Positions 43,908 to 61,048 are shown, numbered from the stretch's first letter. The stretch: DNA of 64,000 nucleotides from Candidatus Kaiserbacteria bacterium RIFCSPLOWO2_01_FULL_51_21 (GCA_001781435.1 MFLV01000011.1:11268-75267); one strand, 5' to 3'. The notes: a model not told the origin generated them from the sequence alone. Program-made: numbers and translations.

Positions 43908-44162
43908 TTAGCGTAAATCTTTCACGGTGCCGGGAAGCTCCTCATGAAGCCGCTTGAGAATCGACTCTTTTTTAAGAAGAATTTCTCCGCGCACGAGCGG
44001 CGGGACGGCAAGATACACGGTGCCTCTTTGGTAACGAAGTGCCTCGTTTGAAGTGGGGAATCCAGTCACCGCAGTAATATGCGCCGCTACCCGCTCTCGA
44101 ACGTGGCGTGTGGAAGAGAGAGAGGAAAAGCGTCCAAGGAGTGTTTTAATGTGCTGAAGCAT
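43908..44162 (-). CDS. DUF721 / DciA-like protein
   Basis: An 84 aa protein immediately downstream of dnaN; DUF721 proteins typically sit in this position. Confidence 0.45.
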   Translation of the reverse strand: MLQHIKTLLGRFSSLSSTRHVRERVAAHITAVTGFPTSNEALRYQRGTVYLAVPPLVRGEILLKKESILKRLHEELPGTVKDLR

Positions 44163-44280: not shown

Positions 44281-45372
44281 TTACCGGTTCATTGGCATGA
44301 CGAGGTAGAGAAAGGAGGTGTCTGAAACGTCCCGAATCACCATCGGCTTTCCCGAACCGTTAAAGGTAAGAGAGACGCTGTCTCCGGTAATTGCCTGGAA
44401 ACAATCGGTGAGATATTTGAGATTGAAGTTAATCGTGACGTCCTCGCCCATGATTGCCGCAGTAACCGTGTCGGTTGTTTCCCCGATATCGCTTTTCGCT
44501 GAAATGATGAACTGTTTCTTTTTAGGGTAAACCGTGATGCCAACTTGGTTGAATTTACCTGAAAACACCATCGCCTTCTTAAAGATGAGAAGGAGGTCTT
44601 GTTTCAAGAGTACCACTTCAGTCGCTTTCTCCTTCGGGATAATCTGGCGGTAGTCGGGAAAGGTTCCTTCCACGGTTCGTGAGGTAAGGTACAGGTCGTT
44701 GAAAATAAAGGAGATTTGATGTTCACCGACACGGACCGTCATGTCCCCTCTCGTGCGCTCAAGAACTCGAAGCACCTCCGGCACCGCCCGCACAGGAAGG
44801 AGAAAAGGCTTAAATTCATACGGTTGTTTTGTCGGGATTATTCTTTCAGCGAGACGGAATGAATCAGTGGCAACAAAAACTAACTTATTTCCCTCGGGGT
44901 ATACGTATACACTCCCAAGTTCAGGCTTTACGGTTGATAACGATGCACTGTACCACACTGATTTTATTCCCTTTAGAAAATCTCCTTCATTGAAACGGAG
45001 TGGTTTAGTGGTAATGGTAGGGAGGGTCGGAAAGTCGTCGGGTGAAACGGTGGTAATGAGTGTTTCACTTGTCGGTGTTTTGAGAGAGAAAGTGTTACCT
45101 TTTACTTCCAAAGAAACCGAGGTGTTGTAGGTATTGATGAGTGTGTTAAGAAGAATTTCAGCCGGAACCGCAACAATTCCCTCAGAAGTTGCTTTTACTG
45201 GTATTGTTGCTTCGATGCCAAGCTCAAGATTTGTTGAGCGTATAACAAGAGAGTTGTTTTTAACTGAAAGCAGAAGATAGTTGAGGATGGGAAGTGTTGG
45301 ATGACGTTTAGCAATCCGTTCAGTGATTGAAACAGCCTCAGTAAGTTGTTCACGTACACATTCAAGCTTCAT
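44281..45372 (-). CDS. dnaN: DNA polymerase III beta sliding clamp
   Basis: MKLECVREQLTEAVSITERIAKRHPTLPILNYLLLSVKNNSLVIRS. Confidence 0.9.
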   Translation of the reverse strand: MKLECVREQLTEAVSITERIAKRHPTLPILNYLLLSVKNNSLVIRSTNLELGIEATIPVKATSEGIVAVPAEILLNTLINTYNTSVSLEVKGNTFSLKTPTSETLITTVSPDDFPTLPTITTKPLRFNEGDFLKGIKSVWYSASLSTVKPELGSVYVYPEGNKLVFVATDSFRLAERIIPTKQPYEFKPFLLPVRAVPEVLRVLERTRGDMTVRVGEHQISFIFNDLYLTSRTVEGTFPDYRQIIPKEKATEVVLLKQDLLLIFKKAMVFSGKFNQVGITVYPKKKQFIISAKSDIGETTDTVTAAIMGEDVTINFNLKYLTDCFQAITGDSVSLTFNGSGKPMVIRDVSDTSFLYLVMPMNR

Positions 45373-45601
45373 AGAAGTATTATTTTATTTCTCTATATAA
45401 ATCTTTTACTATTATTAGTGGTGTGGATAGGGTGAAAAGTGATTAAAATCACTTATTTAAAGAACATTTTCTATTTCAAGTTGTTCTTAATGGTGTGAAT
45501 AAGTTTTGTTTTTTATCGGATAACTCCTTTTTATTTTTTTCCATACACATTTGAGACACACATTCTCACTTCTTATCCGCGGCTAATAAAGGGGTTATCC
45601 A
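45373..45601. promoter_or_regulatory. Candidate oriC: AT-rich dnaA-dnaN intergenic region with five or more DnaA-box-like 9-mers
   Basis: TGTGGATAG (45421), TGTGAATAA (45493), TTATCGGATAAC (45513), TTATCCGCG (45572), TTATCCACT (45593). Confidence 0.55.
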
Positions 45602-46987
45602 CTACTTTAACAAAGCTCTGATCTGCTCCAACTCTTCAGTAAGGGTGGAGTTTAGTTTTATTTCGTTTCTCATTTTTTCGCAAGAGTGGATGACGGTGGT
45701 ATGGTCGCGCCCCCCGAGCTTTTGGCCGATGGTCGGATAAGAAACACGGAAGTCTTCTCGTAAAAGGTACATAATAATCTGCCGTGGGCGCACGACTTCC
45801 TTCCGCCGCGTTTTTTCGTAGATGTTCGATTCATCAATCTCATAAAAGTCGGCGACCTTTTTGATGACGTCTTTCACGGAAATAAGCTTTTTAGGGCGCG
45901 AAGTGTCTCGGATAAGATTTTTTACCTCAAGAAGGTCCAATGTTTTTCCTTTAAGTTGTGTTTGACAGATAATTGAGTTCAGCACCCCTTCCAACTCTCG
46001 GATATTTCCTTGGATATTCTCCGCAAGGTGCTCAACAATACTTTTCTCAAGAACAAAATTATTATGGCTTGCCTTTGCTTGGAGAATGGCAACCCGCGAT
46101 TCGTAATCCGGTTCTGCGATATCCGCAACCATGCCTGCCGCAAAGCGGGATTTTAAGCGCTCGTCGATATTTTGTATGTAGTTGGGATGTTTGTCGGAGG
46201 AAAAAACAATCTGCTTGTTGTTGTCGTAGAGAGCGTTAAAAAGATGGAACAGTTCCTCCTGGGTTTTCTCGGTTTTTGAAAAAAACTGTACGTCGTCCAT
46301 AATAAACACATCGTAGACGCGGTACTTCTCTTTAAATTGATTCATTTTGTTTTCCTGCAGGGAGTTCATGTAATCGACTGCGAATTTTTCCGATGTCATG
46401 TAGTAAACTTTCTTACTCGGACTTGTTTTTTTAATATGGTTGCCGATTGCCTGCATAAGGTGCGTCTTGCCGCGCCCGGTGCCTCCGTAAATAAAGAACG
46501 GGTTGTATGCAATGCCGGGTTTTTGAATAATCGCCTGAGCCGCAGCGTAGGCAAGGTTATTGAATGGACCCACGACAAAGGTATCGAAGGTGTACCGCGG
46601 ATTGAGGTTGTCGCTTTTATTGATATTGAAGTCGAAGGGAAGCTCGGAGAGGGGGGTCAGTGTTTTCAGCGATTCCTCTTTTTGTTTCCGACGATCTCTG
46701 GCAATAACATACTCAAGACCGCGTACCCCGTCTGAAAAACCACGCAGGGTTTTGAGGATGAATTTGTGGTACTTTGTGGAAAGCCAGTCTTTAACAAATT
46801 GATTTGGGACTCCAACATACACCACCCCCTCCTCTTGTTTGACGACGTGGGTATCTTTAAACCAAGTGCTGAAGTTCGCTTTCGATATTGAAAGCTCAAT
46901 ATCAACAAGAGCGTTTTCCCAAAGTTGTTTTGGGTCGAGAGTTTTTCCCACCACGTGACTTCTGCTGTTTGTTGTGTACACTTCCAT
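45602..46987 (-). CDS. dnaA: Chromosomal replication initiator DnaA
   Basis: NPFFIYGGTGRGKTHLMQAIGN...VFIMDDVQFF...C-terminal HTH. The ORF could extend to 47068. Confidence 0.9.
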   Translation of the reverse strand: MEVYTTNSRSHVVGKTLDPKQLWENALVDIELSISKANFSTWFKDTHVVKQEEGVVYVGVPNQFVKDWLSTKYHKFILKTLRGFSDGVRGLEYVIARDRRKQKEESLKTLTPLSELPFDFNINKSDNLNPRYTFDTFVVGPFNNLAYAAAQAIIQKPGIAYNPFFIYGGTGRGKTHLMQAIGNHIKKTSPSKKVYYMTSEKFAVDYMNSLQENKMNQFKEKYRVYDVFIMDDVQFFSKTEKTQEELFHLFNALYDNNKQIVFSSDKHPNYIQNIDERLKSRFAAGMVADIAEPDYESRVAILQAKASHNNFVLEKSIVEHLAENIQGNIRELEGVLNSIICQTQLKGKTLDLLEVKNLIRDTSRPKKLISVKDVIKKVADFYEIDESNIYEKTRRKEVVRPRQIIMYLLREDFRVSYPTIGQKLGGRDHTTVIHSCEKMRNEIKLNSTLTEELEQIRALLK

Positions 46988-47289
46988 ATTTTCAAAGGTG
47001 AGTGGCGATGAGGTTGCAAAGGCAGTACTTAGTATAGGCAGGCTTTCGTTTTTGTAAAACTTCCTCAAAAAGCCCGAATGTGTTCATAAGGTGTGCATAA
47101 CGTGTGAACACTGTGAAAAGCGCTTACTGGGGTTTACCCCGTTAGAAGTAGGGCGCGAACATGGTTTTGTGGGTAAAGAAAACAGGTAGACCTCCCCGGG
47201 TAACAAAGAGATTCGCTGTTAAAACTAACTGCGTCCGCGACTTCTAATGGGGTTTACGCGATACGCTAAATACGGTATGGTATCTTTGT

Positions 47290-47424
47290 ATGTCAACCAC
47301 CTATAGACCAAAAAAGCGAAAACGCGGCCGCACGCACGGATTTCTCGCTCGCTCGAGAACTCCTGCCGGGCGGCGAGTGCTTGCCCGCCGACGCAGAAAA
47401 AATAGAAAACGCCTTTCAGTGTAA
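47290..47424 (+). CDS. rpmH: Ribosomal protein L34
   Basis: Manual translation [44 protein letters not shown]. Too short to appear in the ORF track. Confidence 0.85.
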
Positions 47425-49174: not shown

Positions 49175-49224
49175 GGTACGAATAGTTCTATTCGTAATTC
49201 TTAATTCGTGCTTCGCTATTCGCT
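49175..49224. repeat. TACGAAT/ATTCGTA heptamer repeat between convergent jag and the T4SS-like cluster
   Basis: ggtacgaatagttctattcgtaattcttaattcgtgcttcgctattcgc. Confidence 0.6.
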
Positions 49225-50451
49225 TCCAAGCTCAAGGCTCCAGAGGGTGCCGTCGTTTTTATTTTTGAAAAACACGTACCGGTCATCAGGACTTATACTT
49301 GGGTCGACGACATCAATGGTTGTGTTGCTTTGGTCGCTAAGTATCCCGAGGAGCGTTGAGTTTCCTGAATCAAGCTCAATTTTCCAAAGATTGTCAACGA
49401 AGGAAACAGATCCTTGATACCACAAATCAGGATACGTGCCCTCGGGAATTTCTGCCGGGACGGCGCAAAACAGAACCGTGTCCGATAACGTGCTCCACGC
49501 GCACTTTTCGAGAGGGAGGGTGTTAAGGGGCAAGGCAGCTATCTCTTTTGTTTTTGTGTTGAGATTTTTAAGACTTATGCCGCCATATCCGCTCTCCGCA
49601 AACACGACGCGAGAAAGGCTTCGGTTGGCGATTGCTGTAAGTCCCGGAACGTTTCCTAGTACCGAGGTAAGCGTCTTTGAAGTGGTGTTTATGAAATAGA
49701 GAAAGCCCGGTGTCTCCCCCGATGGTTTTGAGGAGAGCATGATCGTACTGGTTGCCGGCCAGCTTACGAGCCATTCTTTTAAAGGTGAAGAAAAAAGAAG
49801 CGTTTTCTTTGCCCCGTTTGGCTGCGATGTTGTGACATCCCCGCCTTCCCCGTTCTCTAAAACATACGCAAGGGTTCCTCCGGGCGAAAGTGTAACGCTT
49901 AGGATATTGCGAGGCAAAAAAGTGCCCGCAAGCTCCCTCTCGGTTGTCCCCGTGGCGATAGCCCCCGAAAAAGTGACGATACTCTCTTCATCAGTATCCA
50001 AATATTGCAATACTGCCCCGCTTCCACCGGGAAGCCACAGCGCGCTTTGAACTTTGGGTATTGTGGTGTTGCTTATCCGCTTTGCTTCTCCAGAAGAGAC
50101 TGAAACACTATACACATGCCCGGTGGCCCTCTCCATATAGAGAACCTGGTATTCCTGGGAATCTTTGAGAGGGAGAAACCCCGCAACGGGTACGGATGTC
50201 AGTTGGCGCAGTTTCTGGACAGAAGAAAAAGAAGTCTCTTCGGTTGTTGAAGAGCCCTGTGTCGAGGAGGTGTCAGAGGAAAAGATGTTTGGCCCTTGGC
50301 CAAAAGGGAAGAAGTCAAAACGGCTTCCGGAGGTTCCTGGCGTGGTGGTTTTGTTCGTTTGCAAATAATAGATGCCAACTATCCCAAGCACAAGGAGGAA
50401 AAAAACAACAGCTATAATAATTATGGTTTGACGTGACATATTAAAAACCAA
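49216..50451 (-). CDS. Membrane-anchored beta-propeller-like protein (hypothetical, T4SS-like cluster)
   Basis: N-terminal TM IIIIAVVFFLLVLGIVGIYY, an S/T-rich linker and repeated beta-strand-rich blocks. Confidence 0.4.
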   Translation of the reverse strand: MVFNMSRQTIIIIAVVFFLLVLGIVGIYYLQTNKTTTPGTSGSRFDFFPFGQGPNIFSSDTSSTQGSSTTEETSFSSVQKLRQLTSVPVAGFLPLKDSQEYQVLYMERATGHVYSVSVSSGEAKRISNTTIPKVQSALWLPGGSGAVLQYLDTDEESIVTFSGAIATGTTERELAGTFLPRNILSVTLSPGGTLAYVLENGEGGDVTTSQPNGAKKTLLFSSPLKEWLVSWPATSTIMLSSKPSGETPGFLYFINTTSKTLTSVLGNVPGLTAIANRSLSRVVFAESGYGGISLKNLNTKTKEIAALPLNTLPLEKCAWSTLSDTVLFCAVPAEIPEGTYPDLWYQGSVSFVDNLWKIELDSGNSTLLGILSDQSNTTIDVVDPSISPDDRYVFFKNKNDGTLWSLELGSE

Positions 50452-50971
50452 CTCCTCCAGTTTTTGGGTCGACGCATGTCTGGCTCCCTCCTTTAATATT
50501 TACCTGTACAGTACCACCAGCCTCGTCACAGTTTTTTTTAAGAGTATCTAGTTTGAGAATATTGTTGTTTTGGGTATCTAGGGGTTTCGCGGGTTCTAGG
50601 TTAAGCGGCACGCTTCCTATACTTAAGTTGAGGATTGATGGATTAATGGCATTGAGTAACAGAAAAGAGCCCAGAAGCAGAAGAAGTCCTAGAATCGCAG
50701 AGACAATTTTATCTCGCCCTTCGCTTTTACTGCTAATGGATTCCCCTCCCATATACTGAAATCCCCCGATGCCGATCATAATAACCGCGAGAAAGGCCGC
50801 GACACCGATGGAAATCTGGAACAGGCTTTGTACAAACCCGCCGACGTTGTCGTTTGTGTAAGTGACGCCGGGAAGTCGCTCAAGCGGAACATACTCTGTT
50901 TGAGCTTGCGCATAAAGAGCGGTGGTAAGAAGCAGAAGCACAATTATTAAGAATGGACGAGCGTATTTCAT
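50441..50971 (-). CDS. Pilin-like protein (VirB2/TrbC-type candidate) with a C-terminal extension
   Basis: Signal peptide MKYARPFLIIVLLLLTTALYAQA and two hydrophobic helices (ISIGVAAFLAVIMIGIGGF; ILGLLLLLGSFLLLNAI). Confidence 0.35.
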   Translation of the reverse strand: MKYARPFLIIVLLLLTTALYAQAQTEYVPLERLPGVTYTNDNVGGFVQSLFQISIGVAAFLAVIMIGIGGFQYMGGESISSKSEGRDKIVSAILGLLLLLGSFLLLNAINPSILNLSIGSVPLNLEPAKPLDTQNNNILKLDTLKKNCDEAGGTVQVNIKGGSQTCVDPKTGGVGF

Positions 50972-51984
50972 TTCTTTGAACCAAAGGAAACGGTGAGACT
51001 CCTGCTTGCCGATTGTAGAATTTGTTTGAGATTTTGGACGACAAGAGCAAGGGTTGCCGTGCCGCTTCCTTCAGCGGTTTGCCGAAGGGTCACGCTTCCT
51101 TTTTTACCCTCCTCTGTGGCAACGGGCATTCCGTTGAGTGTCCACTGATAACGGAGTGCGCCGCTTGTCCTTTCTTTTGCGCTCATAAAATAAGGGACTG
51201 CAACAATGCGGCTCTCCGAGCCACTTAAGAAAAACTCTTTTTGAAGAGCGGTATTAAATTGAATACCCAAAAGAGGGTCATCTTCGTATAAAACCACCTC
51301 TGGAGCCGCGGCTCCGATAATCGCCGCGCCGCTCCCCCTCACCGCGCCGTCGGCAGTCGCGATGTCGACGAAAACGCGTACCGAATCGTTAAGTTTTGGC
51401 CCGTCAATGGTAACGGAGCTTCTCCCGCGTCCCGACTGATTGCCCAAGACCGTAGTGTTGCGCCGCCACGTGTAGATAAGCGTTCCCGGGGAAGCTTCTT
51501 TTCCGGAACTTACCACAAGATGAGGAATCGCCGTCACCATAACCGGTGCGTCCGAAGCGGCAAGCGCCTTGCCTTGGTAGAAAGGCGGCGTGTAAGAGAT
51601 TGCTTGCCAAAGGACGTCAACTGTGGAGATAGTAAGTGTCACCGCGGCAGAAACAGGCGCGCCGCTTGGCTCTGTCACCGCGACCGATATGAGAAGTCGT
51701 GTGCCTACCACGCCGGCCACGGCCGTGGTGTTTTTAACACCAACTCCTGAGGCGCCGCGCTTGCCGTTTATGGTCCAGATGATGGTGGAGCGGTCAAGGT
51801 CAATCGAAGCGCTCTGCAGATGAATGAGGACCTGCGCTCCCGGTGTTGGATTTTCTGGACTTGCGACAATCTCAACCGGGCTCAAGCCCGTCGTTTGCGC
51901 TTGCGTTACCGTGCCCGGAGCAAAAGCGCCGCAGGCCGCGAGCATAACAAGGAGAAAAAAGTTTTGCATTTGGCGTCTGGTCAT
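50968..51984 (-). CDS. Secreted hypothetical protein (T4SS-like cluster)
   Basis: Signal peptide MQNFFLLVMLAACGAFA. Confidence 0.4.
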   Translation of the reverse strand: MTRRQMQNFFLLVMLAACGAFAPGTVTQAQTTGLSPVEIVASPENPTPGAQVLIHLQSASIDLDRSTIIWTINGKRGASGVGVKNTTAVAGVVGTRLLISVAVTEPSGAPVSAAVTLTISTVDVLWQAISYTPPFYQGKALAASDAPVMVTAIPHLVVSSGKEASPGTLIYTWRRNTTVLGNQSGRGRSSVTIDGPKLNDSVRVFVDIATADGAVRGSGAAIIGAAAPEVVLYEDDPLLGIQFNTALQKEFFLSGSESRIVAVPYFMSAKERTSGALRYQWTLNGMPVATEEGKKGSVTLRQTAEGSGTATLALVVQNLKQILQSASRSLTVSFGSKK

Positions 51985-53852
51985 AATTTTTGAGGCAAGG
52001 GGTTTGCAATGATGGGCTTGACCGGAAGTTCTTTCCCCTGTGAAAAATCAAGTTCGGTTTTTGCTTTTTTGATGGCGAGGAGCTGTGAGGGGTCGGACGT
52101 GATGATTTGATCTTCAGTATACGAGGCGATGACTTTAATTGCCACATGTTTAAGACCGGCGAAGAAGATTCCCTCCCCGACGTCTGATTCCAAGAGAAGA
52201 TATTTTTCTTCATCAGTGAGATTGAACGTGTGCTGGATAACGTCAATGGAGGAAGGCGATTGTTTGAGCAGAAGTTGCAGCGAAGAGTTCGAAATCATTG
52301 GAAGGCCGTAGGGCGATTTCAAAAAGTCGTCAACGTCCTGCGTTATTGTCGCGAGCCCGAGATAGTATTTGCGTCCGCGTTTCGCCATGCTGTAGAGAAA
52401 GTTTGCCGTATCCTCCGCTTTCATCATCCACCATGCCTCGTCAATCACCAAAAGGCGTTTTTTGAGCTCTTTGCGAATCGCCGTCCAGATAAAATGCGTG
52501 ACAATGTACATGGCGACGGGTTTCAGTTCGTCTTCCATATCGCGCACCGAAAACACCACGAATTGCTTGTTAATATCAACATTTGTCGGGCGGTTGATGA
52601 ATCCCGCCCATGTGCCTTTGGTGTATTTAGAAAGTCGCTGAACAAGCGATTCCCCGCCCTCCATGCCGGCAAGCACGAGTTCAAAATCAGATATAAGCGG
52701 CGGCTCAACCGAGGTAAAGTCACTGTCGCCGGTAATGTCTTTGAGCGCGTAGGTTTCGGTGATTGCCCGGTCGATGATAGCGTCTTCTTCCGGCGTGAGC
52801 CCCCCGAGCATGATACGAAAGAGCCCCACAAGATTCACAATGTTTGAGCGCAAAACGTCCGTGGCGGATTCGTCTTCCCGCGGAATAGGAAGGTCAAACG
52901 GGTTGATATGGTGCTCCGAGGAGAGCGAAATGTTGAAATATCTCCCGCCAACCGCCTCAGCGAGGTAATCGTATTCCCGCTCCGGGTCGATCACGATGAC
53001 CTCGGTGTCGAACATAAGCGAGCGTAGAATTTCCAACTTCATCGCATAGGATTTCCCGGAACCGGATTTAGCGAACACCACCGAGTTGTAATTCTCAAGC
53101 GAGAAGCGGTCGAAGAGGACAAGCGAAGAGTTGTGCCTATTAATGCCGTAGAGAATACCGCGGTCGGCAGTGAGGTCGAAGGAAATAAAAGGGAAGACGC
53201 TTGAAAGGGGCGAGGAGTTGAGTTTCGAATGCACCCCGAGTATGTCGGTCGCCGTCGGCAGGACGCTTTTGTACCCTTGCTCTTGCTGAAAGAGCGCCGG
53301 CTTTACATACACGAGCTTTGATTCGAGCATAGAGCGGATTTCAGACTCCGCTTTGTCGAGCTCCTCCAGATTAGAGGCGTAAATGGAAACGTATATTCCC
53401 ACTTCAAAAATACGCTCCTGCGCCTGCTGAAGCTGGTCGCGCAGCTGCTCAAGGTCGCGATACGCGGTGTCAAGTTTCGGGTCGCGCACCATTCCCTTCT
53501 CTTCCCGAAGGCTGATTTGGCTTTGCACCTCGGCTACCTTTTTCTGAAATTGCCGCAGTATTGTCGCGGTATCAATAGGGTGGATAAAGATAGAAATGTC
53601 GAAGACTTTTTCAAGATTGATAATCGGCGAAAACCAGTTATCGGTGAGAAAGCGCGGATACGAGATGACAAAGAACGTGCGGACAACCTTGTCGCCGAGG
53701 TTCATTTCTCGCGGGGAAACTTTCAGCGCCGAGGGGGCAATGATGTCTTTCAGTTCAAGCACTCCCGCTTTATAAATTTCTTCGGGGAGAATTGGCGAAA
53801 GGCTCGGCACCGTCGTTGTTTTTTTTGATTTGAAAATATCTAAGAGTGCCAT
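51981..53852 (-). CDS. virB4: VirB4/TrbE-family type IV secretion ATPase
   Basis: Walker A VVFAKSGSGKSYAMK and Walker B RLLVIDEAWWM, with a VirB4-like N-terminal domain. Confidence 0.85.
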   Translation of the reverse strand: MALLDIFKSKKTTTVPSLSPILPEEIYKAGVLELKDIIAPSALKVSPREMNLGDKVVRTFFVISYPRFLTDNWFSPIINLEKVFDISIFIHPIDTATILRQFQKKVAEVQSQISLREEKGMVRDPKLDTAYRDLEQLRDQLQQAQERIFEVGIYVSIYASNLEELDKAESEIRSMLESKLVYVKPALFQQEQGYKSVLPTATDILGVHSKLNSSPLSSVFPFISFDLTADRGILYGINRHNSSLVLFDRFSLENYNSVVFAKSGSGKSYAMKLEILRSLMFDTEVIVIDPEREYDYLAEAVGGRYFNISLSSEHHINPFDLPIPREDESATDVLRSNIVNLVGLFRIMLGGLTPEEDAIIDRAITETYALKDITGDSDFTSVEPPLISDFELVLAGMEGGESLVQRLSKYTKGTWAGFINRPTNVDINKQFVVFSVRDMEDELKPVAMYIVTHFIWTAIRKELKKRLLVIDEAWWMMKAEDTANFLYSMAKRGRKYYLGLATITQDVDDFLKSPYGLPMISNSSLQLLLKQSPSSIDVIQHTFNLTDEEKYLLLESDVGEGIFFAGLKHVAIKVIASYTEDQIITSDPSQLLAIKKAKTELDFSQGKELPVKPIIANPLPQKL

Positions 53853-53855
53853 AGA

Positions 53856-53960
53856 ATTAGAAGTACGAATAACGAATAACGAATAACGAACAGATGCTTG
53901 GAGCGATTCTTAACTTGGCTTGTTTTTTTTCGTAATTCATACTTCGTAATTCGTACTTCA
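53856..53960. repeat. TACGAAT/ATTCGTA heptamer repeat, both arms (inverted) around a T-run, upstream of virB4
   Basis: gaagtacgaataacgaataacgaataacgaa ... tgtttttttt ... ttcgtaattcatacttcgtaattcgtacttc. Confidence 0.65.
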
Positions 53961-54611
53961 TTGAGCCTCCGGGAGGCTCAAGGGCCGTTCCAGTTCGCCG
54001 GGATTAAAAATTTTGTAATAGAGCTCGATAATTTCTTCCGTCCCAAGAACGACACTGCGAATACCACAACGCGTGAGTCCCTGCTCGACAATTGAGGCGC
54101 GCTGTTCAAGCTGGGTGCGGTGTTCCTCGAATGCGGCACTTTCGTCTGCCGCGGCTGTTTTTGACGGCTTTCCAAAAGGCAAAAGGTTTCCGAGCCCCCC
54201 TTTTTTAACGGAAATGAGCGGCGGCGTATAGGGAACGATAACAAAGAAACTCTTCGACATAATGTTCGCCTCTTCAGTAAAGGCTTTTATAAAGTCGATG
54301 TATTCCCGCACCTGGATTTTCATGAGGTCGCTCCCCTGGGCGCGATGCCGCTCTTCGAGGAGCGCGATATAGGGGCGGATGTCGAGTTCCCGCGACTGGA
54401 TGAAAATTTGAATGGAAAACTCGAGCGAGTTAAGAAAGTTCTGAAACTGCAGAAGTATGGCGGATTGCTCGTCCTGGGATTTAAGCGCGAAGTTTAAAGA
54501 AGAGGTCATCAACATCATCCGCAGTCCCCCGTCTTTGAGCACCACGACGCCGTCTCGCACCTCGCGAATCGGAACGAATTCCTGGGTTGTGTTTGTTTTG
54601 GCAGTAGCCAT
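53958..54611 (-). CDS. Hypothetical protein (T4SS-like cluster)
   Basis: ORF only. Confidence 0.4.
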   Translation of the reverse strand: MATAKTNTTQEFVPIREVRDGVVVLKDGGLRMMLMTSSLNFALKSQDEQSAILLQFQNFLNSLEFSIQIFIQSRELDIRPYIALLEERHRAQGSDLMKIQVREYIDFIKAFTEEANIMSKSFFVIVPYTPPLISVKKGGLGNLLPFGKPSKTAAADESAAFEEHRTQLEQRASIVEQGLTRCGIRSVVLGTEEIIELYYKIFNPGELERPLSLPEAQ

Positions 54612-54612
54612 G

Positions 54613-54644
54613 AAGTACGAATAACGAGTTACGAATTACGAATA
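54613..54644. repeat. TACGAAT heptamer repeat, single arm
   Basis: gaagtacgaataacgagttacgaattacgaat. Confidence 0.6.
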
Positions 54645-55027
54645 GGAAAAAAGGTGCGGGACTTTTTAATTAAACCATTACAGATTTTACTTACTACCGT
54701 TGTTTGATTTTCAATGGCCAGATACTCTGCTTCTAAAAGGTATCCAATATCTTTTGCAATGAGTAATTGATTTTGTACTTCAGTAAGAGAACCGAGCGCC
54801 ACGGCGTAAAATTGGGTTTTCTCTTTATAAGAAGAGCGGCTGAATCCTTCCGCAAGGTTTGAAGTAATAGAAACAACAGCTCGACGTAACTGGCTCGTTA
54901 ATCCAAACTGCTCTTCTTTGGGAAAGTTTTTTGTAATTTTGTAAACCATAATAACGAGACGATGCCCCTCTCGCCATACGCGAAGGTCTTTAAACGATTC
55001 TATTTTTTGCTCCTTCTCGTAATTCAT
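54629..55027 (-). CDS. Four-helix-bundle protein (23S rRNA intervening-sequence protein family)
   Basis: LRVWREGHRLVIMVYKITKNFPKEEQFGLTSQLRRAVVSITSNLAEGFSRSS...LGSLTEVQNQLLIAKDIGYL is typical of this family. Confidence 0.7.
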   Translation of the reverse strand: MNYEKEQKIESFKDLRVWREGHRLVIMVYKITKNFPKEEQFGLTSQLRRAVVSITSNLAEGFSRSSYKEKTQFYAVALGSLTEVQNQLLIAKDIGYLLEAEYLAIENQTTVVSKICNGLIKKSRTFFPIRNS

Positions 55028-55060
55028 TTTCGTAATTCTTAATTCGTTCTTCGTAATTCG
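55028..55060. repeat. ATTCGTA heptamer repeat, single arm
   Basis: tttcgtaattcttaattcgttcttcgtaattcg. Confidence 0.6.
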
Positions 55061-55479
55061 TTTTCCTTCGTTCCCGCGTACATGCTTTCCTGAATATCGA
55101 GGCTCCAGGAAAGGTCTTTCAACTTATTCTGCGAAAGCCGCGGTATCGAAAGGAGGGGGGGAATGTTTTTTTCTTGGCCGGCTTTTTGGGGAAGCGTCTT
55201 TTGTTCATGTTTCCAGAGATATAATTTTTTTGAAAAAGCGTAGTAAAATGCCGCTTCAAGCGCATAGATGAACGGACGATTGTTTATTTTATAAAAGGCA
55301 AGGGCGGCGCCGAAAAGAATAATCGGAGCTCCAAGGAGAAGGGCAAGATAGAGTCCGAGGAAGGTGTAGAGGATTACCACAAAACCGCCTGCGCCGGCGA
55401 GGTAGACAAACTGCCGGAATGTTAACGGTCCGATGATTTTATCTTCAATCTCAATAAATTGTGGTACTTGGAATTGCAT
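55039..55479 (-). CDS. Small two-TM membrane protein (VirB3/PrgI-like candidate)
   Basis: FVYLAGAGGFVVILYTFLGLYLALLLGAPIILFGAALAF. Confidence 0.4.
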   Translation of the reverse strand: MQFQVPQFIEIEDKIIGPLTFRQFVYLAGAGGFVVILYTFLGLYLALLLGAPIILFGAALAFYKINNRPFIYALEAAFYYAFSKKLYLWKHEQKTLPQKAGQEKNIPPLLSIPRLSQNKLKDLSWSLDIQESMYAGTKENELRRTN

Positions 55480-55485
55480 ATTGGT

Positions 55486-55590
55486 CAGAAGTACGAAGTA
55501 CGAGTTACGAAGTACGAGTGAAGAAAGAATCGGATGTTTTTTTGAGGTTTCATTTTTATTCGTAATTCGTACTTCTTAATTCGCTATTCG
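55486..55590. repeat. TACGAAT/ATTCGTA heptamer repeat, both arms (inverted) around a T-run
   Basis: cagaagtacgaagtacgagttacgaagtacgagtgaag ... tgtttttttgaggtttcatttttattcgtaattcgtacttcttaattcgctattcg. Confidence 0.65.
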
Positions 55591-56321
55591 ATAGGTTCTT
55601 TGTACGGGTCCACGGTATATGTTTGGGGTTGCTTTGGCTTCTGCGCGGTCTCCATTGCCTGATTCCCTATTCCTGATTCCTGCTTCACTTGGACATTCTC
55701 TCTCGGTAATCGAAACATTTCCAGTAGCTTCGTTTCGGCAATCGTACCGGTCGGCAAATTCGCCGGCACCTCCGCTTTTTTCTGTTCAATTCGTAATTCT
55801 GGTACCTGCGGTTCTGCTGCGGTGGACAGTTCTTCAATCTCCCGGAGTAATTTTTTTCGCTCGATAGTTAGTTCGGGCGGCACTTCGGGTATTTTTGATA
55901 TTTGAGGAATATCCTTTGTGCGCCCAAGCGCTCCAACGGTTGTCTGCGGCGCGAAGACCTCCGGCGCGTTCGCAAGCTCTTGTTCAGCATCCACTTTTGC
56001 ATCTTCCTCAAACATACGACGCAGGGCCTCCCGAATAGGCAAGAAGATTTCCTCATTAACGCTTCCCGTGATAAGTTGCGCTTGCGCGGGCGGAATGTCG
56101 AGCTCACGAGTGAGAGTCTTTGTGAAATCATTTGGTGATTCAAGCCCGAGCATGACGAAGAGCGTTTCGTTCTCAAGTGCCCCCGCCTGGTCAACGTGGA
56201 GCTGATACTTTTTAGCAATGTTTTGGAGCCGCGGTCGCAGGTCGACCGCATTAATGGCATCTTTTATTTCTTTTGGAACCTGCGCGAGTCGTTCTTTTAT
56301 GAGCTGTTGTGTTTCATCCAT
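55584..56321 (-). CDS. Hypothetical protein (T4SS-like cluster)
   Basis: ORF only; charged, P/E-rich C-terminal half. Confidence 0.4.
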   Translation of the reverse strand: MDETQQLIKERLAQVPKEIKDAINAVDLRPRLQNIAKKYQLHVDQAGALENETLFVMLGLESPNDFTKTLTRELDIPPAQAQLITGSVNEEIFLPIREALRRMFEEDAKVDAEQELANAPEVFAPQTTVGALGRTKDIPQISKIPEVPPELTIERKKLLREIEELSTAAEPQVPELRIEQKKAEVPANLPTGTIAETKLLEMFRLPRENVQVKQESGIGNQAMETAQKPKQPQTYTVDPYKEPIE

Positions 56322-56323
56322 AG

Positions 56324-58423
56324 TTATGTGGTTTTAGGTTCTTCTTTTGGTTCTTCGTTTGCTTTTTCTTCGTCCGCAGCTTGTTTTGAGGCTTCAGTGA
56401 CGGCATCAAAAACTTTATCCTTCGGGCTTTTCTTTAGGTTTGCCCGTATTCTAGCGGCGGCGGCACGTTTGGTTGGATTGACGAAGCGGGTGGAGCCAAA
56501 CATATTGGTCTCTACGATTCGGGCATCTGCCTCTTGTCGTGCCCTGCCGCGGCTCTTGATTGCATCCTCAATATTTTTAAGAATAGTGTTGCTTTCTTCT
56601 CTTTTCTTCTTAGCCTCGTCGTATTCCTTTGTTCGCTCGTCCACTTTTTGGTTTGCGCCTTGAAGTTCAGTGTATTCTTTTCTTTGCCGTGCGGCCATTT
56701 CGCCGATGTCCGTTCTTACCGCATTGAATGCCTCTTGAGCCGCTTTCTGTGTTTCCCTTGCAGTTTTCAGTTCTTCCGTAGCCACTTTTTCAAGTCGTAG
56801 TAATTCTGGCAGTTCTGAACGTTTATCTTCTGCTTTCTGCCGGTCTTCTCTCTCTTCTTTTGTTTCTGTCTCTTCGCCGATATATTTGCTGAATTTCAGG
56901 GCCGCCTTCACGTCATCTTCCTTGATCTTGGCGTACCCGCCAGCTACGCCTCCACCTAGAGTAAGCCCCGATATTTTTGCCGCCTCTTTTGTTACGCCGA
57001 GACGGCGTGCATCCATACTTCCTCCCGCAACCTTGAGAAGCCCTTTCGCGGTTGGGCGGGCAATAATCTGCGAGATGTCTTTTGCAAGTCCGCTACGCAT
57101 CGGCTTCCCTTCTTTATTTTCGCCAAGAGCAAGGCGTTTAACCAATCGGCTCTGAGAGAGCGCACTTGCTCCGAGACCGAGCGTGTGTCGCCCAACGAAT
57201 CCGGCAGTGCCCAAAACCTTGTTGAATCCAAAGCTTGTAACCGCGGCACCAAGCTCTCCGCTAAGATCTTTTGTTACCCTGACAGCAATGTATAAAAGGC
57301 CTACGATAACTGCCCAGTTGAAAAAAGCATTTACCGCAAAACCTTGTTCACCTTGTTCGTTAAAGCCGGGAATCTTAGATTGTGCGCCCACAATAAAACC
57401 GCTGTTTGCCACAATAACGATAACCGTAATGAGGAATACGAAGAGGGGTGCCACCGCCGCCTGGCTAACGAGAGTCGTCAGCCACCGGTCGAAGTGTTTT
57501 CTTGTTTTGGGGAGAATGGCGAAGAAAAAAGCTGCGGGAGAGAGAACCATGAGAAAAACAAAAGCGATGAGTCGAGCGATAAGAACAAACGCTCCCATGA
57601 AGAATACCCATGCCGTGATGAGATTGAGGGTGATTTGGAGAATAAGAATTATTGCGGTATTTCCCCTATCGAGCTTCGCGGTAGGAATACTGCCAAACAT
57701 GTCTTTTACTCCCATTCTGCTAAGAAGTGTCGTGCCAACGCTTGGCCTTGTGCCGGCAGTGGCGTTAGTTGCCGCGATCATGCTGTTGTTGAACTGGTTT
57801 GCCACCAAATTTGACGCGTCAATAACAACCCTGGTGATAGGCAGACTGAAGTTAATGAGGAGAGCGACGATAATGAGGCGCGGCAGGAGTGCTTTCATGC
57901 CATAGCCCGAAACCCGCAGGATGGTGGCAATGGCAATCGTAAGGAGCGCAAAGATGAAGAAGAGATTGGTGGTGTCCCGGACGATCTTCCAGCCGTTTTC
58001 TATGGCAAGGACGGCTCCAGGGTCTGCGAGAAAATTGTTTCCGACGGTGAAGGCAATGACGTAGTCAAAAACATAGATGGCAATATAAACAAGGGAAGCG
58101 GAGGCTACCTGGAGTAGCCATAAGATTCCGTTTAAAATGTTTAAACCAGCCCAGCTAAAGAATCCAGTCATACCTGTACCTATGCCTAGCGACTCTGCTC
58201 CCCCCAGAACTGCTATTGCGGCAATAAAAGGAAACCAAAAGACTGCCTCAGCATGTTTGGTCGGGGTGAAAATACCGCCAACAACCACCGCTACACACAC
58301 CGCAATAAGAATTGGGCGGCGGTACACGAGGAAACGTGCACTAAGCCATAAAGAGACTTCACGGTACCGCTCTGACGTTTTTTCGAAAAAGTGTGTCATG
58401 GCGTGGGGGGAAATGCTTGGCAT
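56324..58423 (-). CDS. Large polytopic membrane protein, VirB6/TrbL-like candidate, with a charged coiled-coil C-terminal tail
   Basis: At least eight hydrophobic helices followed by a K/E-rich tail of about 200 aa. Confidence 0.5.
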   Translation of the reverse strand: MPSISPHAMTHFFEKTSERYREVSLWLSARFLVYRRPILIAVCVAVVVGGIFTPTKHAEAVFWFPFIAAIAVLGGAESLGIGTGMTGFFSWAGLNILNGILWLLQVASASLVYIAIYVFDYVIAFTVGNNFLADPGAVLAIENGWKIVRDTTNLFFIFALLTIAIATILRVSGYGMKALLPRLIIVALLINFSLPITRVVIDASNLVANQFNNSMIAATNATAGTRPSVGTTLLSRMGVKDMFGSIPTAKLDRGNTAIILILQITLNLITAWVFFMGAFVLIARLIAFVFLMVLSPAAFFFAILPKTRKHFDRWLTTLVSQAAVAPLFVFLITVIVIVANSGFIVGAQSKIPGFNEQGEQGFAVNAFFNWAVIVGLLYIAVRVTKDLSGELGAAVTSFGFNKVLGTAGFVGRHTLGLGASALSQSRLVKRLALGENKEGKPMRSGLAKDISQIIARPTAKGLLKVAGGSMDARRLGVTKEAAKISGLTLGGGVAGGYAKIKEDDVKAALKFSKYIGEETETKEEREDRQKAEDKRSELPELLRLEKVATEELKTARETQKAAQEAFNAVRTDIGEMAARQRKEYTELQGANQKVDERTKEYDEAKKKREESNTILKNIEDAIKSRGRARQEADARIVETNMFGSTRFVNPTKRAAAARIRANLKKSPKDKVFDAVTEASKQAADEEKANEEPKEEPKTT

Positions 58424-59943: not shown

Positions 59944-59945
59944 GA

Positions 59946-60935: not shown

Positions 60936-61048
60936 GGTAATATTCGGCTGTCTATAAAGTATAGCAGTAGCGCGGGCTATTCTATAGGTTTTTTGTGTGT
61001 ATACGATTCTTTGTTGCGGGGTTCTATAAGGGTGTATACTTTGTAGGC

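What the first reader, a model, noticed from the sequence alone, without database searches (positions are those of the whole stretch)
45373..45601. Candidate replication origin between dnaA and dnaN
A 229-bp AT-rich spacer carries at least five 9-mers within 1-2 mismatches of the DnaA box TTATCCACA/TGTGGATAA. It also has A/T-rich stretches suitable as a DNA unwinding element. The DciA-like DUF721 gene follows dnaN. A weaker box (TGTGGGTAA) lies upstream of dnaA at about 47140.
Basis: partly seen in the sequence, partly recalled or inferred. Interest (0 to 1): 0.5.

Follow-up and report, generated by a model that had tools for sequence, protein, structure and literature searches.

The report
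Chromosome replication origin between dnaA and dnaN
The 229-bp gap between dnaA and dnaN of this uncultured Kaiserbacteria-like (CPR) bacterium is very probably the place where its chromosome starts to replicate, built like the well-studied Bacillus origin, so it is a sound but ordinary annotation.

Summary
The spacer 45373-45601 carries exactly five 9-mers within 1-2 mismatches of TTATCCACA. Three are within 1 mismatch, against 0.08 expected from composition-preserving shuffles. It is the lowest-GC intergenic region of the window and contains the least stable 50-, 100- and 200-bp duplex stretches of all 64 kb.

Next to dnaN lies a complete basal unwinding system (BUS) of the Bacillus subtilis type:
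- a degenerate box abutting a good box (CTATCCACA, 45422-45430);
- a 3-bp G/C spacer;
- four phased 3'-NAT-5' DnaA-trios (45407-45418);
- 34 bp of AT-rich DNA up to the dnaN ATG.

A matrix built only from 61 relatives (Paceibacterota, DnaA 54-69% identical) hits the window once, here, at 40.7 bits; the next best hit scores 10.1. The closest relative has lost all spacer similarity except this core. Distal boxes face the other way and are phased at about 11 bp across the clade.

GC skew switches near the spacer in the window (weak, confounded by gene orientation) and in 62 of 74 relatives after correcting for gene orientation.

The "DUF721" gene gives no Pfam hit itself, but it has a DciA-like fold.

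Verdict: a new member of a known kind, of low to moderate interest.

The parts
44281..45372 (-). dnaN (DNA polymerase III beta clamp), 363 aa. Its ATG lies directly next to the AT-rich element.
   Evidence: Pfam DNA_pol3_beta, all three domains. It follows dnaA in 75 relatives.
45373..45406 (.). AT-rich stretch, the proposed DNA unwinding element (DUE), between the trios and the dnaN start codon.
   Evidence: Together with the trios it forms the least stable 50-bp duplex window of the 64 kb (45368-45417) and the third least stable 30-bp window (45378-45407). Relatives are AT-rich at the same place.
45407..45418 (+). Four phased DnaA-trios. The + strand read 3'->5' is GAT TAT TAT CAT; the - strand is 5'-CTA ATA ATA GTA-3'.
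   Evidence: This is the only place in the window where a box (<=2 mismatches) is followed within 16 bp by more than two consecutive 3'-NAT-5' triplets. The clade consensus is CTA ATA GTA ATA ATA, with T and A conserved every third base. The layout matches published BUS tables.
45419..45421 (.). 3-bp G/C-rich gap (CCA on the - strand) between the box and the first trio.
   Evidence: The clade consensus is G-[C/G]-A. B. subtilis has CCGG at the same place.
45422..45430 (-). Trio-proximal DnaA box CTATCCACA (1 mismatch), oriented towards the trios.
   Evidence: It is identical in the closest relative L001, while the rest of the spacer has diverged. It is the core of the 40.7-bit unique matrix hit.
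45430..45438 (-). Degenerate upstream member of the tandem box pair (TTTTCACCC, 4 mismatches), sharing one base with the proximal box.
   Evidence: In most relatives this position holds a good box, giving TTATnCACATATCCACA. B. subtilis has the same abutting 9+8 arrangement. Assigning this sequence as a box in the window rests on position only.
45494..45502 (-). Middle DnaA box TTATTCACA (1 mismatch), same orientation, 72 bp upstream of the proximal box.
   Evidence: Relatives have a same-orientation box at 60-62 or 67-73 bp, so the window falls in the second class, one helical turn further away.
45537..45545 (+). Weak reverse-oriented box TTTTCCATA (2 mismatches); uncertain.
   Evidence: It lies 115 bp from the proximal box and is about 79 degrees out of the clade's 11-bp phase.
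45573..45581 (+). Reverse-oriented box TTATCCGCG (2 mismatches).
   Evidence: It lies 151 bp from the proximal box, in phase with the clade-wide positions (9 degrees off).
45595..45603 (+). Reverse-oriented box TTATCCACT (1 mismatch), overlapping the dnaA stop codon by 2 nt.
   Evidence: It lies 173 bp from the proximal box, in phase (2 degrees off). Relatives have reverse boxes at the dnaA-proximal end.
45602..46987 (-). dnaA, 461 aa from the conserved ATG, with all four domains.
   Evidence: Pfam DnaA_N, Bac_DnaA and Bac_DnaA_C. Aligns over 440 residues to B. subtilis DnaA (8btg), E = 1.9e-102. Walker A and B, the Arg finger (R281) and the domain IV RDHTTV motif are kept.
47031..47120 (-). 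Likely dnaA promoter (TTTACA-16-TATACT, 47058-47031) preceded by tandem box-like 9-mers 9-11 bp apart: TTATGAACA (47081), TTATGCACA (47092), then TGTTCACAC (47103) and TTTTCACAG (47112). These are autoregulatory and/or an auxiliary origin part.
   Evidence: The boxes and the TATACT are kept in L001 although the surrounding sequence has diverged. In relatives, 60 of 67 upstream boxes lie within 100 nt of the dnaA start, and all 60 are in the dnaA orientation.
43908..44162 (-). 84-aa protein after dnaN; probably a minimal DciA-like (DUF721 / KH-like) helicase operator.

Best explanation
The dnaA-dnaN spacer is the chromosomal replication origin (oriC) of this Kaiserbacteria-like Patescibacterium, or at least its unwinding module.

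Proposed mechanism, inferred by analogy with B. subtilis incC:
1. DnaA domain IV binds the box pair at 45422-45438 and the middle box at 45494-45502. All of these point towards dnaN.
2. From that anchor, a DnaA-ATP oligomer extends through the 3-bp G/C gap onto the trios carried by the window's + strand (3'-GAT TAT TAT CAT-5', 45418->45407).
3. The oligomer stretches that strand and opens the adjacent AT-rich 34 bp (45373-45406).
4. The oppositely oriented boxes at the dnaA-proximal end (45573-45603, perhaps also 45537), phased by about 11 bp, stabilise the complex on one face of the helix, by a second sub-array or a loop.
5. The helicase is then loaded, plausibly with the small DciA-like protein encoded after dnaN.

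Shown here: the sequence elements, their statistical excess, their conservation, orientation and phasing, the low duplex stability, and the skew polarity. Inferred: DnaA binding, unwinding, and firing in vivo.
For: - Box excess over shuffles, and uniqueness within the window.
- Lowest-GC intergenic region and least stable duplex of the 64 kb.
- The composite element (tandem boxes, G/C gap, five NAT trios) is conserved in about 65 of 76 spacers, beginning 45-76 nt before the dnaN ATG.
- A matrix trained on relatives only gives one hit in the window, 45403-45439 (-), at 40.7 bits against 10.1 for the runner-up.
- Against the 82%-identical-DnaA relative, only the box/trio core survives.
- The arrangement matches published BUS entries. 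B. subtilis is 3'-AATAGGTGT TTAGGTGT CCGG GATGAT..-5' with a 12-bp spacer; here the spacer is 11 bp.
- In relatives, box density is 46 times background. Forward boxes lie near dnaN and reverse boxes near dnaA. The reverse boxes show 11.1-bp phasing (R = 0.59 against a maximum of 0.37 in 2000 random sets), and two of the window's three reverse boxes are in phase.
- The cumulative G-C minimum is at 43806 and the best change point at 44000, reached by 20 of 2000 permutations.
- In 74 relatives, GC3 skew corrected for gene orientation switches sign across the spacer. The side effect is +0.073 and is positive in 62 of 74. dnaA behaves like the left side.
- DnaA is canonical, so it should read canonical boxes.
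- In metagenome contigs, 48 of 83 loci with an exact match to the consensus core TATCCACANNNCTAATAGTAATA have dnaA upstream and dnaN downstream. Most of the others carry further DnaA boxes.
Against: - There is no whole-genome skew, no coverage (marker-frequency) data and no biochemistry.
- In the window, the skew switch is weak once gene orientation is taken into account (side effect t = 2.5-3.3). This organism's coding strands are C-rich at third positions, and 14 of 18 genes to the right of the spacer are on the - strand. That inflates the apparent switch. It also means most genes on that side would be transcribed head-on to the fork.
- There is no perfect box. The upstream member of the tandem pair is degenerate in this genome, and there are only four trios, against five or more in most relatives.
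- The published loose BUS rule is met by 50 of 187 boxes in the window, so by itself it proves nothing.
- The relatives are not phylogenetically independent, so the counts and phase statistics overstate significance.
- A -35/-10-like pair overlaps the box and trios, so a promoter role cannot be excluded.
Confidence: 0.82

Rival explanations
1. The origin is bipartite, as in B. subtilis, C. difficile or H. pylori. On this reading the rpmH-dnaA intergenic box cluster (47081-47120) is a required second half, and the dnaA-dnaN spacer alone is not sufficient. This refines the main explanation rather than excluding it.
For: The upstream intergenic region has two <=1-mismatch boxes against 0.06 expected (P = 0.002). 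Tandem boxes there are kept in L001 although the surrounding sequence has diverged. In relatives, box density upstream of dnaA is 9 times background. Bipartite origins that flank dnaA are documented.
Against: 35 of 80 relatives have no <=1-mismatch box in the 400 nt upstream of dnaA. Those that do have them within 100 nt of the start, in the dnaA orientation, next to a -10-like TATACT. That is the layout of an autoregulated promoter. The upstream region has 50% GC, no trios and no low-stability stretch.
Confidence: 0.3
2. The spacer is only a DnaA-controlled promoter and regulatory region for dnaN. The boxes act as operators and the TA-rich repeats as a -10 region. Replication starts elsewhere.
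For: A promoter-like pair, TTTTCA-16-AATAAT, sits on the - strand at 45438-45411, over the box and trios. dnaN has no obvious Shine-Dalgarno sequence. Some relatives have a TATACT-like hexamer 6-7 nt before the dnaN ATG.
Against: Promoter-like hits in the region are no more frequent than in shuffles (4 against 3.9). The -10-like hexamer is not in a conserved register, whereas the 3-nt phase of the T-A dinucleotides is conserved over five repeats. A promoter does not explain the 11-bp phased reverse boxes. Nor does it explain the skew polarity switch in 62 of 74 relatives, or the same core element occurring with box clusters away from dnaN in other lineages.
Confidence: 0.06
3. It is a non-origin DnaA-box cluster (a datA- or DBC-like titration site) that happens to sit next to dnaA, with oriC elsewhere in the genome.
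For: Such clusters exist in model bacteria (general knowledge). No whole-genome view was available here.
Against: Titration sites do not need co-oriented trios or a DUE. The window's skew minimum and the relatives' skew polarity both point here. No other region of the 64 kb combines boxes with unstable DNA.
Confidence: 0.05
4. It is a chance accumulation of box-like 9-mers in AT-rich intergenic DNA.
For: Allowing two mismatches is permissive: there are 187 such 9-mers in the window, and five also fall within 229 bp near 17.4 kb.
Against: 0 of 5000 composition-preserving shuffles reach three <=1-mismatch boxes. The relatives-only matrix gives a unique 40.7-bit hit. The core is conserved in L001.
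Confidence: 0.01

Closest known systems
Bacillus subtilis oriC incC region and its basal unwinding system (DnaA-boxes #6/#7, DnaA-trios, AT-rich 27-mer; Richardson 2016/2019, Pelliciari 2021/2023)
   Same: - It lies between dnaA and dnaN.
- Two co-oriented boxes abut as 9+8 bp: TTATCCACA-AATCCACA in B. subtilis, TTATnCACA-TATCCACA in this clade.
- A short G/C gap follows, the first trio is GAT, and the trios sit on the strand whose 3' end is box-proximal.
- AT-rich DNA comes next, then dnaN.
- Distal boxes are helically phased.
   Different: - The spacer from the upstream box to the first trio is 11 bp here, against 12.
- The later trios start with T or C (TAT, CAT) instead of G or A.
- In this genome the upstream box is degenerate and only four trios are in phase.
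[quoted passage not shown]
- A DciA-like gene is present, rather than the Firmicute DnaD/DnaB/DnaI route (the latter from general knowledge).
- Nothing has been tested experimentally.
Clostridioides difficile oriC2 and other predicted dnaA-dnaN origins (DoriC / Ori-Finder type predictions)
   Same: The dnaA-dnaN spacer holds several boxes and a trio run preceded by a GC cluster and followed by the DUE. A second box cluster lies upstream of dnaA.
   Different: C. difficile unwinding was shown by P1 nuclease and needed both regions. Here the evidence is sequence only, and the upstream cluster is absent from about 44% of relatives.
Escherichia coli oriC
   Same: There are two sub-arrays of DnaA boxes pointing away from each other. 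The DUE lies beyond the outermost box of one sub-array, and that box (R1) points towards the DUE with trio-like triplets in between (box orientations from general knowledge).
   Different: E. coli oriC is not next to dnaA. It uses IHF and GATC/SeqA control and has 13-mer repeats. None of these was seen here.
DciA (DUF721, Pfam PF05258), the ancestral replicative-helicase operator

Membership tests
DnaA-dependent bacterial oriC | A cluster of DnaA boxes in excess of chance and of the local background | tested here: met
   Three boxes at <=1 mismatch against 0.08 expected in shuffles (0 of 5000); five at <=2 mismatches against 1.0 (P = 0.002). This is the only 229-bp stretch of the window with three <=1-mismatch boxes. 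In relatives, density is 1.11 per 100 nt against 0.024 background.
DnaA-dependent bacterial oriC | An AT-rich DNA unwinding element adjacent to the boxes | tested here: met
   GC is 0.28, the lowest of 29 intergenic regions. The least stable 50-, 100- and 200-bp nearest-neighbour windows of the 64 kb flank the proximal box.
DnaA-dependent bacterial oriC | Location at the switch of strand compositional asymmetry (GC-skew minimum) | tested here: inconclusive
   In the window, the cumulative minimum is at 43806 and the change point at 44000, reached by 20 of 2000 permutations. Gene orientation is a strong confounder (GC3 effect -0.11), and the side effect after correction has t = 2.5-3.3. In relatives the orientation-corrected switch is positive in 62 of 74. 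A whole-genome curve was not obtainable.
DnaA-dependent bacterial oriC | Next to dnaA, dnaN or another origin-linked gene | tested here: met
   The gene order is rpmH-rnpA-yidC-jag, divergent from dnaA-[spacer]-dnaN. The dnaA-dnaN order, with a median spacer of 225 bp, is kept in 75 relatives.
DnaA-dependent bacterial oriC | DnaA binding, DnaA-dependent unwinding, and initiation in vivo at this site | not testable with these tools
   This needs footprinting, P1/KMnO4 or strand-separation assays, or marker-frequency data from metagenome reads.
Basal unwinding system (BUS; Pelliciari et al. 2021 definition) | A DnaA box (<=2 mismatches) followed within 16 bp, on the correct strand and in the correct orientation, by at least three 3'-NAN-5' trios | tested here: met
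   The layout is CTATCCACA, then a 3-bp gap, then 3'-GAT TAT TAT CAT-5'. The rule alone is loose, since 50 of 187 boxes in the window pass it. The stricter requirement of four NAT trios is met only here.
Basal unwinding system (BUS; Pelliciari et al. 2021 definition) | A tandem co-oriented second box, with 10-13 bp between the upstream box and the first trio | tested here: inconclusive
   The clade has TTATnCACA-TATCCACA with an 11-bp spacer, within the published 10-13 bp peak. In the window the upstream box is TTTTCACCC. Its 4 mismatches lie within the published tolerance for the weaker box, but it is not convincing on its own.
Basal unwinding system (BUS; Pelliciari et al. 2021 definition) | DnaA with an Arg finger and a hydrophobic ISM residue for ssDNA binding | tested here: met
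   R281 aligns with B. subtilis R264 and is invariant in 80 of 80 relatives. M207 aligns with I190. However, N187 corresponds to V204 and K222 to T239, with K238 adjacent.
Bipartite oriC flanking dnaA (B. subtilis, H. pylori, C. difficile type) | A second box cluster upstream of dnaA that is required for origin function | tested here: inconclusive
   The cluster is present and conserved in the nearest relative. It is lacking in 35 of 80 relatives and is laid out like an autoregulated promoter. Whether it is required cannot be tested here.
DciA / DUF721 (PF05258), for the 84-aa gene after dnaN | A significant match to the Pfam DciA model | tested here: not met
   There is no hit for the window protein at E <= 10. 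Six of 26 family members match weakly, with a best E of 0.0026. None of 21 database homologues carries a precomputed Pfam domain.
DciA / DUF721 (PF05258), for the 84-aa gene after dnaN | A KH-like DciA fold | tested here: met
DciA / DUF721 (PF05258), for the 84-aa gene after dnaN | Interaction with and loading of DnaB helicase | not testable with these tools
   This needs biochemistry.

The most novel reading that the evidence does not exclude
Paceibacterota (CPR) may run a minimal version of the ancestral initiation machinery. It would consist of an almost Bacillus-identical 36-bp box-box-gap-trio module, read by a DnaA that lacks the adenine-contacting Asn of B. subtilis (Ser, Val or Ile in 64 of 80 relatives). 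This would be paired with an 84-aa, domain-only DciA encoded directly after dnaN. If so, trio recognition does not depend on that Asn, and a KH domain alone can operate the helicase. The conserved 36-mer would also be a practical marker for placing oriC in CPR metagenome-assembled genomes.
Probability: 0.35. Interest if true: 0.45.

Novelty: new member of a known kind. Interest (0 to 1): 0.3.

Why it matters
It gives a well-supported origin annotation for an uncultured, host-dependent CPR lineage in which no origin has been studied. The literature searches made here found only dnaA used as a proxy for the origin.

It extends the box/trio unwinding module, proposed to be ancestral, to a phylum that does not occur in the held copy of the published survey table; the largest file of that copy was cut when stored. 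It also yields a simple sequence signature for setting the start of CPR genomes and for coverage-based growth-rate estimates.

It does not change the current understanding of initiation.

Tried and rejected
- Pfam and NCBIfam on the 84-aa ORF gave nothing relevant: no Pfam hit at E <= 10 and one irrelevant NCBIfam hit (E = 0.2). A profile of the family against PDB sequences gave only spurious hits. The afdb50 fold library was unavailable.
- The published loose BUS rule (box, then up to 16 bp, then at least three NAN) was rejected as evidence by itself. 27% of all <=2-mismatch boxes in the window satisfy it.
- The 18-nt palindrome AAGTGATTAAAATCACTT (45437-45454) was rejected as a feature. There are 54 equally good palindromes in 64 kb, and it is not conserved.
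- Rfam gave only a sub-threshold AsdA hit inside the dnaA coding sequence, antisense (27.9 bits against a gathering score of 52). This reflects dnaA sequence conservation, not an RNA in the spacer.
- I considered a leaderless dnaN promoter (a TATACT-like hexamer 6-7 nt before the ATG). It is seen in 19 of 76 relatives, but the window does not fit the pattern.
- The second place with five <=2-mismatch boxes (about 17390-17605) has no <=1-mismatch box. Its intergenic part (17489-17708) has 47% GC. There are no trios.
- Whole-genome skew of the complete relative OZ244961.1 could not be computed, because only 9 kb of it can be fetched.
- Literature searches for a described CPR/Patescibacteria oriC found none.

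Full report
**What is there**

Pfam identifies dnaN at 44281-45372 (-) and dnaA at 45602-47068 (-). Divergent from dnaA lie rpmH (47290-47424), rnpA, yidC and a Jag/R3H gene. Left of dnaN lie an 84-aa ORF, a class A penicillin-binding protein and a class Ib (TyrRS/TrpRS-family) aminoacyl-tRNA synthetase gene. The dnaA ORF as listed starts at a TTG. The ATG at 46987 is conserved in the closest relative and gives a 461-aa protein.

The 84-aa protein is 100% identical to a hypothetical protein of Candidatus Kaiserbacteria bacterium RIFCSPHIGHO2_02_FULL_50_9. All 80 DnaA relatives fetched are Patescibacteria/Paceibacterota MAGs. The window thus comes from a CPR bacterium with about 50% GC.

**Check of the observation**

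The spacer holds exactly five 9-mers within two mismatches of TTATCCACA:
- CTATCCACA, 45422-45430 (-)
- TTATTCACA, 45494-45502 (-)
- TTTTCCATA, 45537-45545 (+)
- TTATCCGCG, 45573-45581 (+)
- TTATCCACT, 45595-45603 (+), which overlaps the dnaA stop codon by 2 nt

Across the window there are 21 boxes at <=1 mismatch, against 8.7 +/- 2.9 expected. Five of the 21 lie in the two intergenic regions flanking dnaA.

Dinucleotide shuffles of the spacer itself give 0.08 boxes at <=1 mismatch against three observed (0 of 5000 shuffles reach three). They give 1.0 at <=2 mismatches against five observed (P = 0.002).

The spacer has 28% GC, the lowest of 29 intergenic regions. It contains the least stable 50-, 100- and 200-bp duplex windows of the 64 kb.

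Two details need correcting. The upstream box TGTGGGTAA is at 47168-47176, not about 47140. The gene after dnaN is not recognisable as DUF721 by Pfam.

**Anatomy**

Read in the dnaA->dnaN direction (the window's - strand), the dnaN-proximal end is:

cTTTTCACC-CTATCCACA-CCA-CTA ATA ATA GTA-AAAGATTTATATAGAGAAATAAAATAATACTTCT-ATG

The complementary strand, which is the window's + strand, reads 3'-GAT TAT TAT CAT-5'. These are four DnaA-trios in the published sense (3'-NAN-5', consensus 3'-GAT-5', first trio usually GAT). They are preceded by a short G/C gap and a box whose TTATCCACA orientation points at them.

Table S2 of Pelliciari et al. gives B. subtilis as 3'-AATAGGTGT TTAGGTGT CCGG GATGATAAT...-5'. 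That is two abutting boxes (9+8 bp), a 4-bp gap, then the trios. This is the same layout as here.

The loose published rule is not discriminating in this window, since 50 of 187 boxes pass it. Four consecutive 3'-NAT-5' triplets after a box occur only here; the next best site has two.

**Comparative evidence**

In 75 species-level relatives (DnaA 54-69% identical), dnaA is followed by dnaN. The spacer has a median length of 225 bp (range 145-421) and 14-49% GC. This conserved gap stands out in a window that is 91% coding by the greedy ORF map.

An expectation-maximisation matrix over the 76 spacers converges on G-TTATCCACA-TATCCACA-G[C/G]A-CTA ATA GTA ATA ATA (30.6 bits). T and A recur every third base over five repeats. 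The site begins 45-76 nt before the dnaN ATG in about 65 of the 76 spacers.

A matrix built from 61 relatives only, without the window, finds one site in the window on either strand: 45403-45439 (-), at 40.7 bits. The runner-up scores 10.1 bits.

The closest relative (L001, DnaA 82% identical) has a spacer that no longer aligns meaningfully, except for TCACCCTATCCACAC.ACTAATA, where 23 of 24 positions are identical.

In relatives, box density per 100 nt is 1.11 in the spacer, 0.22 in the 400 nt upstream of dnaA, and 0.024 elsewhere. Forward boxes cluster at 50-75 and 100-150 nt before the dnaN ATG. Reverse boxes all lie 125 nt or more away, at the dnaA end.

Relative to the proximal box, the middle forward box sits at 60-62 or 67-73 bp; in the window it is at 72 bp. 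The reverse boxes fall on an 11.1-bp lattice (R = 0.59; the maximum in 2000 random sets was 0.37). The window's TTATCCACT (173 bp away) and TTATCCGCG (151 bp) are in phase. TTTTCCATA (115 bp) is not. Helical phasing of distal boxes is also a property of B. subtilis incC. These statistics ignore shared ancestry and are therefore optimistic.

As an independent test of specificity, the exact consensus core TATCCACANNNCTAATAGTAATA was searched in metagenome contigs and found at 83 loci:
- 48 have dnaA upstream and dnaN downstream.
- About 10 more are consistent as far as the contig allows.
- About 12 lie in other lineages between a SurA/PpiD-like rotamase gene and nadA or a HAD hydrolase gene. Most of these carry further DnaA boxes, so they look like origins that are not next to dnaA.
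- About six look like chance matches.

**Strand asymmetry**

The cumulative G-C curve of the window has its minimum at 43806, and the best change point is at 44000 (t = 4.1, reached by 20 of 2000 bin permutations).

This is weaker than it looks. In this organism the coding strand is C-rich at third codon positions (orientation effect -0.11, t = -6). Also, 14 of 18 genes to the right of the spacer are on the - strand, which by itself pushes the + strand skew upwards. After correcting for orientation, the side effect is +0.026 to +0.048 (t = 2.5-3.3).

Pooling 74 relatives (about 4 kb on each side) gives an orientation-corrected GC3 side effect of +0.073. It is positive in 62 of 74 loci, and is 0.089 when dnaA and dnaN themselves are excluded. 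The GC3 skew of dnaA (-0.104) resembles same-strand genes further left (-0.124). dnaN (-0.016) is intermediate towards same-strand genes on the right (+0.109). The polarity is the one expected if forks diverge from about the spacer. It cannot resolve the spacer from the region 1.5 kb away upstream of dnaA. The behaviour of dnaA favours the spacer.

**The initiator**

The DnaA protein has all four domains and aligns over 440 residues with B. subtilis DnaA from the BUS cryo-EM structure (8btg, E = 1.9e-102). Walker A and B, sensor II, the arginine finger (R281, invariant in 80 of 80 relatives) and the domain IV RDHTTV helix are present, so canonical boxes are the expected ligand.

The ssDNA-contacting hydrophobic residue (B. 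subtilis I190) is Met here. The Asn that contacts the trio adenine in B. subtilis (N187) is Val here. Across the clade that position is Ser, Val, Ile, Gln or Leu in 75 of 80 relatives and Asn in only three. This is a difference worth noting but not a contradiction: the authors state that these residues are not universally conserved.

**The region upstream of dnaA**

The rpmH-dnaA intergenic region has 50% GC, no trios and no unstable stretch. It has two <=1-mismatch boxes (P = 0.002). It also has a run of tandem box-like 9-mers at 47081-47120, just upstream of a TTTACA-16-TATACT promoter-like site. The tandem boxes and the TATACT are kept in L001.

In relatives, 60 of 67 upstream boxes lie within 100 nt of the dnaA start in the dnaA orientation, and 35 of 80 relatives have none. 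I read this as an autoregulated dnaA promoter. An auxiliary origin role, as with B. subtilis incA/B, cannot be excluded.

**The gene after dnaN**

The 84-aa ORF has no Pfam or NCBIfam hit. It belongs to a family of mostly 82-91 aa found directly after dnaN in nearly all relatives.

Six of 26 family members hit Pfam DciA (PF05258) weakly, and DciA is the only family hit more than once. All 21 database homologues are unannotated.

**Mechanism and verdict**

The best-supported reading is an ordinary DnaA-dependent oriC of the dnaA-dnaN type with a Bacillus-like basal unwinding system:
1. DnaA anchored on the box pair extends as an ATP-dependent oligomer onto the trios of the + strand.
2. It opens the AT-rich 45373-45418 region.
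3. The back-to-back reverse boxes at the dnaA end, phased on one helical face, assist.
4. A DciA-like protein probably helps load DnaB.

The elements, their excess over chance, their conservation, orientation and phase, the duplex instability and the skew polarity are shown. Binding, opening and firing are inferred.

I found no paper describing a CPR origin. One recent paper uses dnaA as a proxy for the origin when noting that the Patescibacteria T4SS sits next to it.

This is a new member of a known kind: useful for annotation, unsurprising to a specialist.

Noticed in passing
window 49216-61000, - strand: A type IV secretion gene cluster starts 2 kb from dnaA and is transcribed towards the proposed origin. 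It includes TrbC/VirB2-like pilin (50441-50971), a VirB4/TraG-type ATPase (51981-53852), PrgI (55039-55479) and TrbL/VirB6-like (56324-58423). Proximity of the T4SS to dnaA, dnaN, rpmH and rnpA in Paceibacteria is already published (PMC12102498). If the origin call is right, the cluster is head-on to the fork.
   Followed up: partly
window 54629-55027, - strand: A 132-aa '23S rRNA-intervening sequence protein' (PF05635, E = 8e-37; also bAvd-like) sits inside the T4SS cluster.
   Followed up: no
window 43908-44162, - strand; the corresponding ORF after dnaN in L002-L080: A conserved, unannotated family of mostly 82-91 aa follows dnaN in nearly all Paceibacterota relatives. It is confidently predicted to have a KH-like fold whose best match is DciA. 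It looks like a domain-only DciA that Pfam does not detect.
   Followed up: yes
L084, L085, L086, L105, L113, L115, L128, L135, L163 and others (metagenome contigs): The same core (tandem boxes, 3 bp, CTAATAGTAATA, then AT-rich DNA), usually with further DnaA boxes upstream, occurs in other, unidentified lineages. There it lies between a SurA/PpiD-like rotamase gene and nadA or a HAD hydrolase gene, with no dnaA or dnaN nearby. These are probably origins that are not linked to dnaA.
   Followed up: partly
window, all genes; relatives L002-L080: Coding strands are C-rich at third codon positions (GC3 skew orientation effect -0.11 in the window and -0.06 in relatives). Raw GC skew in these genomes is therefore strongly shaped by gene orientation and must be corrected before it is used to place an origin.
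   Followed up: yes
window DnaA residues 204 and 238-239 (inside 45602-46987): The position of B. subtilis Asn187, which contacts the trio adenine, is Val here. It is Ser, Val, Ile, Gln or Leu in 75 of 80 relatives, although the trio A and T are strongly conserved. Lys222 is Thr here with a Lys one residue earlier, whereas 71 of 80 relatives have Lys.
   Followed up: partly
window 45437-45454: A perfect 8-nt-arm palindrome, AAGTGATTAAAATCACTT, lies just upstream of the box pair. It is not significant (54 equally good ones in 64 kb) and not conserved in relatives.
   Followed up: yes
window 46409-46489, + strand: A sub-threshold Rfam hit to AsdA (the antisense RNA of dnaA mRNA, described in Salmonella) lies inside the dnaA coding region: 27.9 bits against a gathering score of 52. 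It most likely only reflects conservation of the dnaA Walker region.
   Followed up: no
window 56001-57000: There is a very strong AT skew (-0.40) on the + strand over the 5' part of the TrbL/VirB6-like gene, meaning its coding strand is A-rich. This probably indicates a low-complexity protein segment.
   Followed up: no
last 30 nt of the dnaA-dnaN spacer in L017, L019, L021, L024-L028, L031 and others: A subclade has a TATACT-like hexamer 6-7 nt before the dnaN ATG (19 of 76 spacers). This spacing would suit a leaderless dnaN transcript starting inside the unwinding region. The window (AATACT, 3 nt before the ATG) does not fit.
   Followed up: partly
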